Part shown: in pieces, positions 8,746 to 43,061 of the stretch
Layout of the letters: each line of letters opens with the position of its first letter
Position numbering within the stretch: the first letter of the stretch is position 1
DNA from: a virus
Taxonomy: Duplodnaviria; Caudoviricetes
Direction: 5' to 3' (one strand)
Virus record (IMG/VR): IMGVR_UViG_3300048796_000029
Coordinates: 1-64,000 of that record
Length of the DNA stretch: 64,000 nt
The notes under the pieces: generated by a model
Told to the model about the DNA's origin: nothing
Databases searched by the model: none
The model's input: only the letters and a program-made list of their open reading frames with translations
Made by a program: the position numbers and the translations under genes

Positions 8746-8971
8746 CAACATGGGGGTCACTTGCTAGTGATAGCAAGCTGAGAACTTTCTCTGATTGACT
8801 TGGAAGCTGAAATGGCTAACAGGGGGCAAGCTGATAACTTCAGCAGCCTGAACGACTAAGTGAGAGAGCATCTGGAAACAGATGATGCGATAGTCTGACC
8901 TGCATGGAATAACAACATGCAGAGGTAAGCAGAAATGACTTGCCTCGGCGTAAATCGCCGATAACAAAGTG
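8746..8971 (+). mobile_element. Group I intron 1 of portal (226 nt, no ORF)
   Basis: 5' exon ends in U paired to IGS GGGUC; P7 GACTA/TAGTC; GCAGCCTGAACGACTAAG core motif; P9 stems; terminal G; removal restores the frame. Confidence 0.88.
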
Positions 8972-9029
8972 CCTGTATCAGTCACCGCGTCCAATGACAG
9001 TGTACGAGAACACGTATGTACTGGAACCT
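8972..9029 (+). CDS. Portal protein exon 2 (58 nt)
   Basis: C+LYQSPRPMTVYENTYVLEP links exons 1 and 3 in frame. Confidence 0.8.
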
Positions 9030-9264
9030 AAACTACTCATTACAAATGAGTTATTGGGTCACTCTGTAGTGATGCAGATGTGAGAATTTTCTCTGATTGA
9101 CTTGGAAGCTGAAATGGCTAACAGGGGGCAAGCGAAAGCAGCCTGAACGACTAAGTGAGAAAACATCTGGAAACAGATGATGCGATAGTCTGACCTGCAT
9201 GGAATAACAACATGCAGAGGTAAGCAGAAATGACTTGCCTCGGCGAAAGCCGATAACAACGGTG
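9030..9264 (+). mobile_element. Group I intron 2 of portal (235 nt, no ORF)
   Basis: Core nearly identical to intron 1; IGS UAUU-GGGU pairs both exons; terminal G; restores LEP|NVQRF. Confidence 0.88.
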
Positions 9265-13158: not shown

Positions 13159-13224
13159 ATGGCATACACTCCTGCTGGAAACGTCCAGTCAAACCTCCCT
13201 CAGTCCACCGTCAAGTTCTACGAT
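13159..13224 (+). CDS. Major capsid protein exon 1 (22 codons)
   Basis: AAGGA RBS; MAYTPAGNVQSNLPQSTVKFYD joins KKFRENL. Confidence 0.82.
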
Positions 13225-13450
13225 AAACGATAACCTTGTCGTAGTAAAACCTTCTCTGATTGACTTGGAAGCTGAAATGGCTAACAGGGCGCAAGCAATG
13301 CTTGACAAAAGCAACGCAGCGTGAGAGACTAAGTGAGAGGGCGTGAATTGATAACAATTCATGATGCGATAGTCCGAACATACGGGAATAACAACCGTAT
13401 GAGATCAGCAGAAATGACCTGATCCGTGCTCTGAAGCACGTAACACATTG
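13225..13450 (+). mobile_element. Group I intron A of capsid gene (226 nt, no ORF)
   Basis: P1 CTACGAT/GTCGTAG with U.G; shared core block; P7 GACTA/TAGTC; ends TAACACATTG. Confidence 0.88.
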
Positions 13451-14284
13451 AAGAAGTTTCGAGAGAACCTCAAGGCTCAAACACCTTTCATCGCCTGTTC
13501 CGAACGTCTCGATCTGCCCACCAAGAGTGGTAATCAGTACGAGATGTTCATGTACGTTCCGCTGGCTGCAAATCAGGCGCAGACCACGGAAGGTTCAGTG
13601 GGCAACAGTATCACCGTAAACGTTCTCCAGACCACCGCAACTATCGGAGAATACGCAGATTACGCCAACTTCTCCTCGCTGTCTCTGGCAACCGCCATCG
13701 ACAACACTGTCGAGAATGTGGCCCGCGAAATGTCCTACCGTCTGGGCGAGAGCCTGAGCGGTCTGGTTCGCGCAACTGCGGACGGTGCAAACGCGGTTGA
13801 CCCCAGCGTTCTCATCGCTCTCCCGGCAGCTTCGACTTCCAGCTTCACGACTCTCAGCCTGACCGAGATTCGTAACGCTGTCCAGTCCCTCGCTGGTCGT
13901 TCTGTGCGTCCGTACGACGAAGCATCCAAGGCATTCTGCGGTGTAATCCACCCGTTTGCTCTGGGCGACGTTCTTGCGGATACCGCGAACAACGCACCAA
14001 TCGACATCCTCAAGCACACTCCGGTGGGCCTTGCCAAGATGGAAGACCTCCTGAGCACCGACTTGACCGAGATGATCGAACTGCCTAGCTCTGGAGTTCA
14101 CTTCTTCCAGACGAATCAGGTCACCACGACCACGAACTACAAGGGCGTGGCTGGTCTGACGGCACTCCGTACCTACATCTTCGGGCGTGATGGCATCTAC
14201 AGCATCAAGCTCGGCGCTCAGGGCGACACGGAGTTCGGTGACGGCGAGTGGCAGAACATCAACTGCAACATCGTTCAGAACGCT
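13451..14284 (+). CDS. Major capsid protein exon 2 (278 codons)
   Basis: Follows the scaffold; EYADYANFSSL and HP motifs resemble P22/N4-gp56-type coat proteins. Confidence 0.82.
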
Positions 14285-14335
14285 ATACAGTAGGTTTGGC
14301 GTTCTTTTGAAGTTGTGTGGTAACCGTCCTAAATG
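14285..14335 (+). mobile_element. 51-nt core-less group I-like mini-intron B in capsid gene
   Basis: In-frame TAG (14291-14293); IGS 14290-14305 pairs 8 bp with each flanking exon; U.G at the 5' site; TAAC motif; terminal G; removal joins QNA|EPTVAD. Confidence 0.75.
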
Positions 14336-14416
14336 GAACCTACGGTTGCCGATCCCGAGGGGCTGATCCCCGGTTGGACTTCTTACAGAGTCCACTTCAC
14401 AACTTCGCTCGGCCCT
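14336..14416 (+). CDS. Major capsid protein exon 3 (27 codons)
   Basis: EPTVADPEGLIPGWTSYRVHFTTSLGP, with codon style like exon 2. Confidence 0.75.
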
Positions 14417-14643
14417 AAATGCTAAGTATTGGGGCGAGTAATAAACCTTCTCTGATTGACTTGGAAGCTGAAATGGCTAACAGGGGGCAAGCGCGGATGA
14501 AAATCCAAGCAGCCTGAGAGACTAAGTGAGAGGGAACCTGATAAGCACAGGTTATGCGATAGTCCGATCTTGCAGGAATAAAAACTGCAAGAGGTAGGCA
14601 GAAATGTCCTACCTCAGTGACGTAAGTTACTGATAACAATTTG
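14417..14643 (+). mobile_element. Group I intron C of capsid gene (227 nt, no ORF)
   Basis: P1 CTCGGCCCT/GGGGCGAG; P10 GTATT/GATAC; shared core; terminal G. Confidence 0.88.
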
Positions 14644-14694
14644 GATACGACCATCAGAATCCGCGAAATCGACGCCGCAAGCGCGATCAGCTAA
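14644..14694 (+). CDS. Major capsid protein exon 4 (spliced product predicted at 343 aa)
   Basis: DTTIRIREIDAASAIS-stop completes the frame. Confidence 0.75.
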   Translation, partial: DTTIRIREIDAASAIS

Positions 14695-14710: not shown

Positions 14711-14739
14711 TTGACAAAACACTCATTGTTTGGTACAAT
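14711..14739 (+). promoter_or_regulatory. sigma70-type promoter for the HNH gene
   Basis: TTGACA-17 nt-TACAAT; ATG 7 nt downstream suggests a leaderless or short-leader mRNA. Confidence 0.75.
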
Positions 14740-14745
14740 GTAATA

Positions 14746-15267
14746 ATGAGAAAACTAGACCTAGCAGGAAAACAATACGGAAGGCTGACACTTGTAAAAG
14801 TTGTCGGTGTGAATAAGGCAAAACAGAGAGTGTGGGAATGCGCTTGCGAGTGCGGTAAAACGCATATCGCGGCGCAAGGCCACCTCACAAAAGGTAAGGT
14901 CACCAGTTGTGGTTGCTTCCGAAAGGAACGCGCAACCACACATGGGATGACTCGCACCCCGGAATGGTTTGCTTACCAACACGCGAAGTCTCGGTGCCAA
15001 CCGGGACATGAATGTCATGAGCATTACTTTGATCGAGGTATAACTTTTGGGTTTACCTCCTTCATGGAGTTCTTTTCCGAGATAGGCTTACGCCCATCGA
15101 AGAAGCACTCCGTAGACCGTATCGACAACGATAGGGGATACGAACGGGGTAATGTTCGCTGGGCTACAAAATCCCAGCAAGAGCGTAACCGTAGATGTGA
15201 CAACTGCTGTGAACTAAAAAGCAGGATAGCAGAGCTTGAGAAGCGCATTCTCGAACTGACTAAGTAG
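14746..15267 (+). CDS. HNH homing endonuclease
   Basis: DLAGKQYGRLT...WECACECG; HSVDRIDNDRGYERGNVRWAT. Confidence 0.88.
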   Translation: MRKLDLAGKQYGRLTLVKVVGVNKAKQRVWECACECGKTHIAAQGHLTKGKVTSCGCFRKERATTHGMTRTPEWFAYQHAKSRCQPGHECHEHYFDRGITFGFTSFMEFFSEIGLRPSKKHSVDRIDNDRGYERGNVRWATKSQQERNRRCDNCCELKSRIAELEKRILELTK

Positions 15268-42242: not shown

Positions 42243-43061
42243 ATGAGTACCGTAACTACACCAGTAACCACGCTGGCTGCTGCATCTGGGTTGGACACAT
42301 TGCGGACAGAGATAACCAAGGTACAATCCACGGTGAAGACCGATGCGAACAAGGCAGAGTCGTGGCTAAAGGTTCACGAGCGCATTATCTTGGCCCTGAT
42401 AATTAGCTTGGCCCTGTTACTCGGCAGCTTCAAGTACCTCGGCGTCGTCGCCGACCGAGACAAACAGCAGGCCAACATCGCCGCCCAGACACTCGCAGTG
42501 CAGCACGACAAGGACGTGGCGCTGGCACAGCAGGCCCAGCAGGACGCTACTAGCTACAAGGCAACTGTTGCGGCGTTGTCTCAGCAGAATGCCCAGCTTG
42601 TTGCGGCCAGCGCCAGCCGCACTATCGTCCTCCAGCAGCAGCAGGCAACCGACAAGACTTTGCCGATGCCCAATCTCGGCAATCGTTGGGCCTCGCTCAT
42701 CGGCGCACAGCCCGGCGATCTGACCGCGACCACCGCAGGCATCACAGTGACGCCGCAGGCCGCGCTGGACACCACTCTCTCGCTCGAACAGGTGCCTGTG
42801 TTGAAGGCGAATCTCGCCGACGCGCAGACACAAATCACCAACGGCCAAGCAGAACTAGCGAAGGCAAACACCGTGATTACGGATCAGGCCCAGCAGATCG
42901 ACGGACTGGGAACCGAACTCACGGATCAGAAGACAGCGGACGCGAAAGAACTGACTGCGGTGAAAGCACAAGCCCGCAAGGGTAAGCTCCACGCGTTCCT
43001 GTATGGACTAGGAGTGGGAGCAGGAGCCGTAACTGGTCTCGTTGTTCACGCTCTGTTGTAA
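42243..43061 (+). CDS. Membrane-anchored coiled-coil protein (spanin-like, tentative)
   Basis: N-proximal and C-terminal hydrophobic helices flank an Ala/Gln coiled coil. Confidence 0.45.
   Translation: MSTVTTPVTTLAAASGLDTLRTEITKVQSTVKTDANKAESWLKVHERIILALIISLALLLGSFKYLGVVADRDKQQANIAAQTLAVQHDKDVALAQQAQQDATSYKATVAALSQQNAQLVAASASRTIVLQQQQATDKTLPMPNLGNRWASLIGAQPGDLTATTAGITVTPQAALDTTLSLEQVPVLKANLADAQTQITNGQAELAKANTVITDQAQQIDGLGTELTDQKTADAKELTAVKAQARKGKLHAFLYGLGVGAGAVTGLVVHALL

What the first reader, a model, noticed from the sequence alone, without database searches (positions are those of the whole stretch)
14277..14343. A 51-nt core-less group I-type mini-intron interrupts the major capsid gene
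Seen: capsid exon 2 ends ...CAG AAC GCT(14284). Then 51 nt with an in-frame TAG follow, and the frame resumes at GAA CCT ACG(14336). The insert holds a contiguous 16-nt guide (14290-14305). Its 3' half GGCGUUCU pairs 8 bp with the 5' exon, with U14284.G14298 exactly at the junction (P1). Its 5' half GUAGGUUU pairs 8 bp with the 3' exon GAACCUAC (P10). It ends TAAC-CGTCCTAAAT-G, echoing the TAAC...G ends of all four full introns here. It has no P3-P8 core and no GACTA/TAGTC P7. Established: P1 with U.G, P10 and omega-G define group I splice sites, and catalysis needs the P3-P9 core. Inference: this substrate-only intron must be excised to make full-length capsid but cannot self-splice. I do not know of a described phage example, but could not search.
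Basis: partly seen in the sequence, partly recalled or inferred. Interest (0 to 1): 0.96.

Follow-up and report, generated by a model that had tools for sequence, protein, structure and literature searches.

The report
Core-less mini-intron borrowing neighbour's ribozyme
A 51-base insert that breaks a soil phage's capsid gene keeps only the splice-site helices of a self-splicing (group I) intron, and comparison with 11 related inserts suggests it is cut out by the catalytic RNA of the full intron 81 bases downstream, a helper-dependent kind of intron I could not find described in the literature.

Summary
Window 14285-14335 is a 51-nt insert with an in-frame stop, lying exactly between QNA and EPTVADP. 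That stretch is contiguous in more than 100 intron-less 343-aa homologues, including a 99%-identical one. Its 16-nt guide pairs 8 bp with the 5' exon (U.G at the junction) and 8 bp with the 3' exon, and the insert ends in G. There is no catalytic core.

I found 11 more distinct mini-inserts (33-47 nt, mostly not multiples of 3) at five sites of the same capsid gene, in independent metagenome assemblies. All share this architecture and show compensatory changes in P1 and P10.

Three results tie each mini to a full intron 45-107 nt downstream (in L266 a further endonuclease-bearing intron intervenes):
- A full intron lies downstream in every locus.
- The mini's tail pairs, with covariation, with the exon stretch directly 5' of that intron's own P1 strand.
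- The base before the mini's terminal G co-varies with the helper's J7/9, as the helper's own does.

Ribosomal bypass fails its defining test: no matched take-off and landing codons. RNA evidence could not be obtained, so splicing itself is inferred.

This scan has noted the same kind of element on other phage DNA. I found no published description.

The parts
13159..13224 (+). Capsid exon 1 (22 codons, MAYTPAGNVQSNLPQSTVKFYD)
   Evidence: tblastn of the intron-less homologue P0003; sequence read
13225..13450 (+). Full group I intron A (226 nt), a member of the four-copy family in the window
   Evidence: Shared 30-nt core block at 13256; P7 motifs at 13327 and 13368; family alignment A3
13451..14284 (+). 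Capsid exon 2 (278 codons). Its last 8 nt, 14277-14284 (AGAACGCU), are the exon strand of the mini-intron's P1
   Evidence: Translation; 99-78% identity to 120 listed homologues
14285..14335 (+). Core-less mini-intron (51 nt). It comprises a linker (14285-14289), the P10 guide (14290-14297), the P1 guide (14298-14305), UUU, the anchor strand GAAGUUGUG (14309-14317), an 18-nt tail, U14334 (omega-1) and the terminal G14335
   Evidence: The insert is absent from L001 and from all 343-aa homologues
14336..14416 (+). Capsid exon 3 (27 codons). Positions 14336-14343 are the P10 exon strand. Positions 14398-14406 (CACAACUUC) are the anchor exon strand. Positions 14408-14416 (CUCGGCCCU) are the exon strand of intron C's own P1
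   Evidence: Between mini-bearing loci there are 13-18 synonymous against 0-2 non-synonymous differences
14417..14643 (+). Full group I intron C (227 nt), the proposed helper. Its P10 and P1 guides are at 14426-14438. The 5' strand of P7 lies near 14520 and the 3' strand at 14558-14564. The J7/9 bases A14567 and U14568 are the proposed P9.0 partner. The intron ends ...AAUUUG
   Evidence: Weak Rfam Intron_gpI match at 14407-14591; family alignment A3; J7/9 table
14644..14694 (+). Capsid exon 4 (16 codons, DTTIRIREIDAASAIS, plus TAA)
   Evidence: tblastn 14644-14691, 94% identity to residues 328-343 of P0003

Best explanation
The 51 nt are a non-autonomous derivative of a group I intron. The insert keeps the substrate parts: the P1 helix with the U.G wobble at the 5' splice site, a contiguous P10 guide that holds the 3' exon, and a terminal G. 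It has lost the whole P3-P9 catalytic core.

Proposed arrangement on the pre-mRNA:
- Nine bases of the mini's tail (14309-14317) pair with exon 3 at 14398-14406.
- That exon stretch lies one base 5' of the exon strand of intron C's own P1.
- The mini's P1/P10 stack therefore sits beside the P1 of the full intron C, joined through a junction with 3-nt and 1-nt linkers.

Proposed sequence of events:
1. Intron C's folded core docks the mini's P1 instead of its own.
2. Exogenous G cleaves after U14284.
3. G14335 enters the G-binding site, helped by a P9.0-type pair between U14334/A14333 and J7/9 A14567/U14568.
4. Exon 2 is ligated to exon 3, releasing a roughly 52-nt RNA.
5. Intron C then docks its own P1 and excises itself.

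What is shown: the anatomy, its conservation and its covariation. What is inferred: the splicing itself, its order, and the use of intron C's core.
For: 1. The insert must be removed or skipped.
- It carries an in-frame stop.
- Related inserts are 33, 34, 37, 38, 39, 40, 46 and 47 nt long, mostly not multiples of 3.
- The exon downstream shows 13-18 synonymous against 0-2 non-synonymous differences between mini-bearing loci.

2. The group I substrate signature is present in all 12 distinct minis, at 5 sites.
- U.G at the 5' splice site, the P10 guide directly 5' of the P1 guide, and a terminal G.
- P1+P10 sums are 9-16 bp, against a mean of 4.35 (maximum 7) for guides taken from other sites.
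- Compensatory changes occur in both P1 and P10.
- The conserved G.U pairs mean the pairing exists only in the + strand RNA.

3. A helper is always present. In all 15 mini-bearing loci a full family intron lies downstream of the mini; in 14 the intervening exon is 45-107 nt. In L266 a further, endonuclease-bearing intron lies between the mini and helper C. This holds for six different mini-site and helper-site combinations.

4. The anchor helix.
- The tail, starting 0-6 nt (mostly 1-3) after the P1 guide, pairs with the exon stretch that abuts the helper's P1 exon strand. This is true whichever site the helper occupies.
- In alignment A4, 90.8% of cells are paired, against 36-50% in slid controls. 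One anchor pair shows AU, CG, GC and UA in the four sequences.
- In alignment A5, 88.8% of cells are paired, against 28-50%. Nine pairs changed on both sides. A Ser codon switch (AGC to UCG) is matched by the tail.

5. P9.0. The base before the terminal G, in both helper and mini, is complementary to the first J7/9 base of the helper. It is U with A in 10 loci and A with U in the 2 loci whose helper has GUUC (L027, L269).

6. It is not an assembly artefact. Identical minis occur in independent assemblies: L002=L265, L011=L258, L027=L259, L261=L264.
Against: - There is no RNA evidence.
- The covariation tests rest on only 4 sequences per alignment, and those sequences are related.
- Single-sequence energies of the anchor helix against shuffled tails are mostly modest (z -0.6 to -4.4).
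- The second P9.0 pair is complementary in only 6 of the 12 minis.
- In L266 an 870-nt endonuclease-bearing intron lies between the mini and the helper whose neighbouring exon its tail matches, and that match has one C.A mismatch.
- No natural case of a group I core acting on a second, covalently upstream substrate helix is documented. Steric feasibility is assumed, not modelled.
Confidence: 0.68

Rival explanations
1. Group I chemistry, but in trans. Any free, already excised copy of the intron family excises the mini (the window has four copies). In this reading the anchor helix only helps local folding or sets the order of splicing.
For: - Four near-identical cores are transcribed from the same late region.
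- From memory, group I cores can accept a P1 duplex supplied in trans in vitro (Doudna and Szostak, 1989).
- In L266 another intron separates the mini from the helper that its tail matches.
Against: - The anchor helix pairs with exon sequence abutting the helper's P1, not with the intron. It therefore tethers the mini to a core only while that helper is still unspliced.
- The mini lies upstream of the nearest helper in all six site combinations, which free diffusion would not require.
- The omega-1 base tracks the adjacent helper's J7/9.
Confidence: 0.12
2. Programmed translational bypass. The ribosome hops over the 51 nt, as in T4 gene 60 or the byp elements of yeast mitochondria. In this reading the P1-like hairpin acts as a take-off stem-loop.
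For: - The size (33-51 nt) is in the range of the 50-nt gene 60 gap.
- A hairpin includes the last translated codons.
- An in-frame stop lies within 1-3 codons.
- The context is rich in homing endonucleases, as for the gene 60 cassette (bioRxiv 10.1101/2022.08.31.505936).
Against: [quoted passage not shown] None was found in any of 77 codon-aligned placements tested across 11 of the minis.
- At sites iii-v the junction splits a codon. At site iii only a hop between unmatched codons (GUA or GUU to UGU or UGA) gives the conserved residue.
- The invariant U.G at the junction, the invariant terminal G, the covariation with the 3' exon and the co-variation with the neighbour's J7/9 have no role in bypassing.
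Confidence: 0.05
3. The insert is not removed. It is a decaying remnant of an intron, and the gene is broken or yields a truncated 302-aa capsid protein ending QNAIQ. The contig would come from a defective phage.
For: - The contig is a metagenome-assembled virus estimated at 76% complete.
- No expression data are available.
Against: - Twelve distinct versions persist in diverged lineages with compensatory changes.
- The exons downstream remain under strong purifying selection.
- The 41 C-terminal residues are nearly invariant in all homologues.
Confidence: 0.04
4. Protein-catalysed unconventional splicing. An endonuclease cuts at both ends of the insert, which are displayed on the P1/P10 pseudoknot, and an RtcB-type ligase joins the exons.
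For: The two splice sites abut in a quasi-continuous helix, a geometry that a ligase could use. A distantly related phage (Tunturi 5, not the window's relative) is reported to encode a tRNA splicing ligase (PMC11924767).
Against: - I identified no such enzyme pair in the window, though I did not search for one systematically.
- The U.G wobble, the terminal G, the P9.0 match and the tether to a ribozyme's P1 are specific to group I catalysis.
- The minis occur only next to full group I introns.
Confidence: 0.04

Closest known systems
Self-splicing group I introns of phages (T4 td/nrdB/sunY; Staphylococcus phage Twort orf142 with three introns in one gene; from memory) and the four full 226-235-nt introns of this window
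   Same: P1 with U.G at the 5' splice site; a P10 guide contiguous with the P1 guide; a terminal G; a P9.0-type match. The mini is placed in a highly conserved stretch of an essential gene, with several introns in one gene.
   Different: The mini has no P3-P9 core, no P7 G-binding site and no P2. At 51 nt it is about a quarter the size of the smallest known natural group I introns (about 200 nt, from memory). It therefore cannot be autocatalytic. It carries an extra helix to the exon next to another intron's P1.
Group III introns of Euglena chloroplasts (degenerate group II introns of 90-120 nt lacking domain V, thought to need trans-acting RNAs or proteins; PMC4424553)
   Same: An extreme reduction of a self-splicing intron to its splice-site-defining parts. 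It sits in essential genes and excision presumably depends on catalysis supplied from elsewhere.
   Different: The ribozyme class and chemistry differ: group I with exogenous G and a linear product, against group II with a lariat. Here a specific helper can be named, the adjacent intron, tethered in cis. For group III introns the helper is unknown.
T4 gene 60 50-nt coding gap and its homologues; byp elements of yeast mitochondria (bioRxiv 10.1101/2022.08.31.505936)
   Same: A short (27-55 nt), stop-containing, non-coding insert in an essential phage gene. A hairpin covers the last codons. The insert is associated with homing-endonuclease cassettes.
   Different: There are no matched take-off and landing codons. 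The junctions can split codons. The conserved pairings are to both exons and to a neighbouring ribozyme's surroundings.
Engineered group I ribozymes that act on a P1 duplex supplied in trans (Doudna and Szostak 1989; from memory, not checked here), and naturally fragmented trans-spliced group I introns (from memory)
   Same: The core recognises a P1 helix through tertiary contacts and does not need to be covalently continuous with it in the usual order.
   Different: Those cases are laboratory constructs or split cores that reassemble by base pairing. Here one intact natural core appears to serve two complete substrate sets in series on a single transcript.

Membership tests
Group I self-splicing intron | P1 helix between the 5' exon and an internal guide, with a U.G wobble at the 5' splice site | tested here: met
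   Positions 14277-14284 pair with 14298-14305 (8 bp, U14284.G14298). The same holds in all 12 minis, with C-G to U-A and other compensatory changes.
Group I self-splicing intron | Terminal guanosine (omega-G) at the 3' splice site, and P10 pairing of the 3' exon with the guide | tested here: met
   G14335 is the last base. P10 is 14336-14343 with 14290-14297 (8 bp). All 12 minis end in G. P10 is 4-8 bp and covaries.
Group I self-splicing intron | Conserved catalytic core P3-P9, with the G-binding site in P7 | tested here: not met
   Only 30 nt follow the guide. The family's P7 motifs are absent. Rfam Intron_gpI matches only 14407-14591, not the 51 nt, even at E up to 10.
Group I self-splicing intron | Autocatalytic excision in vitro with GTP and Mg2+ | not testable with these tools
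   This needs transcription and splicing assays. No RNA reads were obtainable.
Gene 60 / byp-type translational bypass element | Matched (identical or wobble-equivalent) take-off and landing codons flanking the gap | tested here: not met
   0 of 77 codon-aligned placements in 11 of the minis. The feature is as defined in bioRxiv 10.1101/2022.08.31.505936.
Gene 60 / byp-type translational bypass element | [quoted passage not shown] | tested here: inconclusive
   In the window the stop is the third codon after GCU (AUA CAG UAG). In L002 and L266 it is the second codon. Several site iii minis have none adjacent.
Helper-dependent (core-borrowing) mini-intron, as proposed here | A full intron of the same family downstream on the same transcript | tested here: met
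   This holds in 15 of 15 mini-bearing loci. The intervening exon is 45-107 nt in 14 of them; in L266 another intron lies in between. It holds for six site combinations.
Helper-dependent (core-borrowing) mini-intron, as proposed here | A covarying helix between the mini's tail and the exon abutting the helper's P1 strand | tested here: met
   Positions 14309-14317 pair with 14398-14406. Helix 3 in A4 and A5 has 2 and 3 pairs changed on both sides. By eye the helix is also present in L263, L269 and L011 site iv.
Helper-dependent (core-borrowing) mini-intron, as proposed here | The mini's omega-1 base matches the helper's P9.0 partner in J7/9 | tested here: met
   12 of 12 are complementary. The two helpers with GUUC instead of GA(A/U)C have minis ending AG instead of UG. 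This amounts to only two, possibly related, switches.
Twintron (intron within an intron) | One intron interrupts the sequence of another | tested here: not met
   The mini and the helper are separated by 81 nt of conserved coding exon.

The most novel reading that the evidence does not exclude
One group I ribozyme core serially excises two introns. The first is a tethered, core-less mini-intron upstream and the second is the core's own intron. These 33-51-nt minis would then be a class of non-autonomous group I-derived introns. They would be the group I counterpart of group III introns, and a living example of splice-site elements separating from the catalyst, recurrent in structural genes of soil phages of Acidobacteriota-type hosts.
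Probability: 0.62. Interest if true: 0.9.

Novelty: new variant of a known kind. Interest (0 to 1): 0.86.

Why it matters
If the model holds, four things follow.

1. The smallest natural intron that uses group I chemistry drops from about 200 nt to 33-51 nt.
2. A self-splicing intron can evolve into a substrate-only element that depends on a catalyst encoded elsewhere on the transcript. That step has long been postulated for the origin of spliceosomal introns from group II introns, but has not been seen for group I.
3. There is a practical consequence. Gene callers truncate these capsid genes, for example at QNAIQ* or QNVN*, and Rfam-type searches cannot see the minis. Phage structural genes in metagenomes are therefore mis-annotated.
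4. The design is compact and testable: guide, tether, P9.0 match and a neighbouring core. It could be used to build ordered, multi-site RNA splicing devices.

Tried and rejected
- Rfam at gathering thresholds finds only two tRNAs in the window. At E up to 10 only intron C gives a weak group I match.
- A whole-window scan for further P1/P10/omega-G candidates found nothing else that interrupts a gene. The 8+7 bp candidate at 43002 lies inside an intact ORF. Shuffles give similar numbers at sums of 12-16.
- The search for related loci returned 80 capsid loci, almost all intron-less, because contiguous matches rank first.
No reads were therefore laid and there is no RNA evidence.
- I looked for a spliced-form protein among the 120 listed homologues. 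Three share L002's junction (QNV|APTV), but they are 80-93% identical relatives, at least one of them on a long DNA contig. They are not transcripts.
- Tail-versus-exon duplex energies against shuffled tails are mostly weak taken singly. The case rests on position and covariation.
- The automatic helper splice-site finder misplaced L260 and L266; I corrected these by eye.
- L270 (P0098) diverges into unrelated sequence and was not used. L268 (P0073) has two full introns and no mini.
- Six literature searches found no description of a core-less or helper-dependent group I intron.
- Pfam gives no family for the ORF at 14746-15264 or for the capsid protein.

Full report
**What is there.**
The window is the first 64 kb of a 72-kb metagenome-assembled virus record. 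Its closest cultured relative is Tunturiibacter phage Tunturi_3, a podovirus of Acidobacteriota (87% amino-acid identity over capsid exon 2; PMC11924767).

The major capsid gene belongs to what JGI names the 'N4-gp56 family' and is in pieces:

| Part | Coordinates |
|---|---|
| Exon 1 | 13159-13224 |
| Full intron A | 13225-13450 |
| Exon 2 | 13451-14284 |
| The 51-nt insert | 14285-14335 |
| Exon 3 | 14336-14416 |
| Full intron C | 14417-14643 |
| Exon 4 | 14644-14694 |

The four full introns of the window (two in the portal gene, two in the capsid gene) share an identical 30-nt core block. They align as one family of about 200-235 nt. Rfam's group I model recognises intron C only weakly (21 bits).

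- More than 100 homologues of 343-344 aa read ...NIVQNA EPTVADPEGLIPGWTSYRVHFTTSLGP DTTIRIREIDAASAIS without a break.
- The 99%-identical contig L001 lacks exactly the 51 nt, and also lacks intron C.
- The insert reads IQ-stop in frame.
- Its 16-nt guide pairs 8 bp with the 5' exon, with U14284.G14298 at the junction, and 8 bp with the 3' exon. The insert ends in G14335.
- A free scan of 64 kb would throw up a 16-bp P1+P10 combination about once per strand by chance.
- With the boundaries fixed by homology, shuffled inserts reach even 12 bp in only 0.07% of trials.

**It is a family, not a one-off.**
Pattern scans anchored only on the flanking codons found the same kind of insert in 14 further loci from independent assemblies. 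Together with the window this makes 12 distinct sequences at five sites of the gene.

| Site | Position in the gene | Insert lengths and loci |
|---|---|---|
| i | QNA/V\|EP | 51, 47, 39, 37, 37 nt |
| ii | QNAEP\|TV | 34 nt |
| iii | inside the Val codon of EPTV | 40, 40, 38, 33 nt |
| iv | inside the Met codon of QYEMF | 46 nt (L011) |
| v | inside the Trp codon of PGW | 38 nt (L269) |

All 12 share these features:
- The exon ends in U, and that U pairs with the first G of the P1 guide.
- The P10 guide lies immediately 5' of the P1 guide.
- The tail is 17-30 nt long.
- The last base is G.

The guides differ from site to site and match only their own exons: sums of 9-16 bp, against a mean of 4.35 and a maximum of 7 for cross-site combinations.

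Within a site, exon changes are compensated in the guide. For example:
- P1: AGAACGCU/GGCGUUCU against AGAACGUU/GACGUUCU.
- P10: GAACC/GGUUU, GCACC/GGUGU and GAGCC/GGCUU.
- The same is seen at site iii.

The conserved G.U pairs mean the structure exists only in the sense-strand RNA. Identical minis in separate assemblies exclude mis-assembly.

**The insert has to go.**
Most of the inserts are not multiples of three. Exon 3 differs between mini-bearing loci by 13-18 synonymous but only 0-2 non-synonymous substitutions. It is therefore translated in frame in these lineages.

**Ribosome hopping is unlikely.**
Gene 60-type cassettes always have matched take-off and landing codons (bioRxiv 10.1101/2022.08.31.505936). 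No matched pair appears in any of 77 codon-aligned placements tested across 11 of the minis, and at three sites the junction splits a codon.

**Link to the neighbouring intron.**
Three independent observations point to the full intron downstream as the catalyst.

1. *A helper is always there.* A full family intron lies downstream of the mini in all 15 loci and in six different combinations of mini site and helper site. The intervening exon is 45-107 nt in 14 of the loci. Most capsid genes of this family have no intron at all.

2. *The anchor helix.* The mini's tail, beginning a few bases after the P1 guide, pairs with the exon stretch that directly abuts the exon strand of the helper's own P1.
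   - In the window, GAAGUUGUG (14309-14317) pairs with CACAACUUC (14398-14406). One base later comes CUCGGCCCU, intron C's P1 strand.
   - This helix moves with the helper: after residue 327, 319, 331 or 89.
   - It covaries. One pair shows AU, CG, GC and UA in four sequences.
   - A serine codon switch from AGC to UCG is matched in the tail.
   - Overall, 89-91% of cells are paired, against 28-50% when partners are slid by 1-3 columns. No shuffle out of 500 reaches the observed covariation score. The caveat is that each alignment has only four related sequences.

3. *The P9.0 match.* Among the full introns, the two bases before the terminal G covary with the two bases following ATAGTC(C/U)G. 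I read this as P9.0, by established group I nomenclature.
   - The mini's base before its terminal G follows the same rule with its neighbour's J7/9.
   - It is U opposite A in ten loci.
   - It is A opposite U in the two loci whose helper reads GUUC (L027 and L269), which carry different minis at different sites.

**Model.**
The mini's P1/P10 stack, the anchor helix and the helper's P1 meet in a junction with linkers of about 3 nt and 0-1 nt. Seen from the mini, the anchor helix and the helper's P1 hairpin occupy the place of P2/P2.1 in front of an ordinary core, and the 3' splice site sits in the loop closed by the anchor helix.

The helper's core would dock the mini's P1, carry out both transesterifications and release a roughly 52-nt RNA. 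It would then dock its own P1 and leave.

Because the anchor is made with exon sequence, it can tether the mini to the core only while the helper is unspliced. That predicts the order: mini first. It also explains why minis lie upstream of helpers. All of this is inference from sequence. No RNA data could be obtained.

**Comparison with what is known.**
The element passes the substrate-side tests of a group I intron and fails the core test, so it should not be filed as a self-splicing intron.
- The closest analogue in concept is the group III intron of Euglena plastids. These are 90-120-nt remnants of group II introns that lack domain V and are thought to rely on trans-acting factors (PMC4424553).
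- Laboratory work, recalled from memory, has shown that group I cores accept P1 duplexes supplied separately.
- I found no natural, published case of a core-less group I intron, or of one core serving two introns.

**Earlier notes of this scan.**
- First-stage notes on this same window proposed the tether, and a P9.0 match in title only (e1-5899598, e1-5899606). I found the tether independently before reading them. I tested the P9.0 lead afterwards.
- The scan has also reported core-less mini-introns beside full group I introns in capsid and portal genes of other phage genomes (e1-3409714, e1-3580882, e1-3580881, e1-3432269, e1-3282333, e1-5754449).
- One of those notes states that the mini is spliced out of the RNA. 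I did not check those reports.

**Verdict.**
The element is real, recurrent and under selection. It is most probably a helper-dependent derivative of a group I intron, excised in cis by the next intron. Direct RNA proof is missing.

Noticed in passing
L011 1095-1140 and 2996-3032 (IMGVR_UViG_3300050821_002142; identical in L258): One capsid gene carries four full introns and two mini-introns, at sites iv and i. One of the full introns holds an ORF with a LAGLIDADG-like motif (LIDGEG). That makes six interruptions in a 343-codon gene.
   Followed up: partly
L266 (minus strand) about 1448-575: An intron of about 870 nt containing an endonuclease ORF sits after WTS, between the site i mini and helper C. 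The mini's tail (GAAGCUGU) still matches the exon next to helper C (ACAACUUC) with one C.A mismatch. This implies that the middle intron is removed first, or that this mini is decaying.
   Followed up: partly
window 14711-15267: A consensus-like promoter (TTGACA-17-TACAAT) is followed by an ORF at 14746-15267 directly after the capsid stop. The ORF has Cys-rich and DRIDNDRGYERGNVRWA motifs that look HNH-like. Pfam gives no family at E up to 0.01. It could be a free-standing homing endonuclease that targets the intron-rich capsid 3' end.
   Followed up: partly
window 8746-9264: Two near-identical full introns lie in tandem in the portal gene (SU10_portal family), separated by a very short exon. 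This is the kind of tandem arrangement from which a mini could arise by loss of the upstream core. I did not verify their exact boundaries.
   Followed up: no
window 14320-14328 with 14342-14350: The extra length of the window's mini tail contains GGUAACCGU, which can pair with ACGGUUGCC in exon 3, overlapping the end of P10 by 2 nt (MFE fold, z = -4.9). L002 and L011 have a 5-bp equivalent (AACGG/CCGUU). This may be a helper helix at the 3' splice site, or a structure that competes with P10.
   Followed up: partly
window 14336-14416 compared with L001 7836-7916: Upstream of the mini the window and L001 are almost identical in DNA. Downstream they differ at many synonymous sites. This looks like a co-conversion tract imported together with the mini and intron C.
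   Followed up: no
L270 1570-2054: The capsid ORF of P0098 runs after WTS into unrelated GC-rich sequence that carries an opposite-strand ORF. This is probably a chimeric contig or a recombination junction, not an intron.
   Followed up: no
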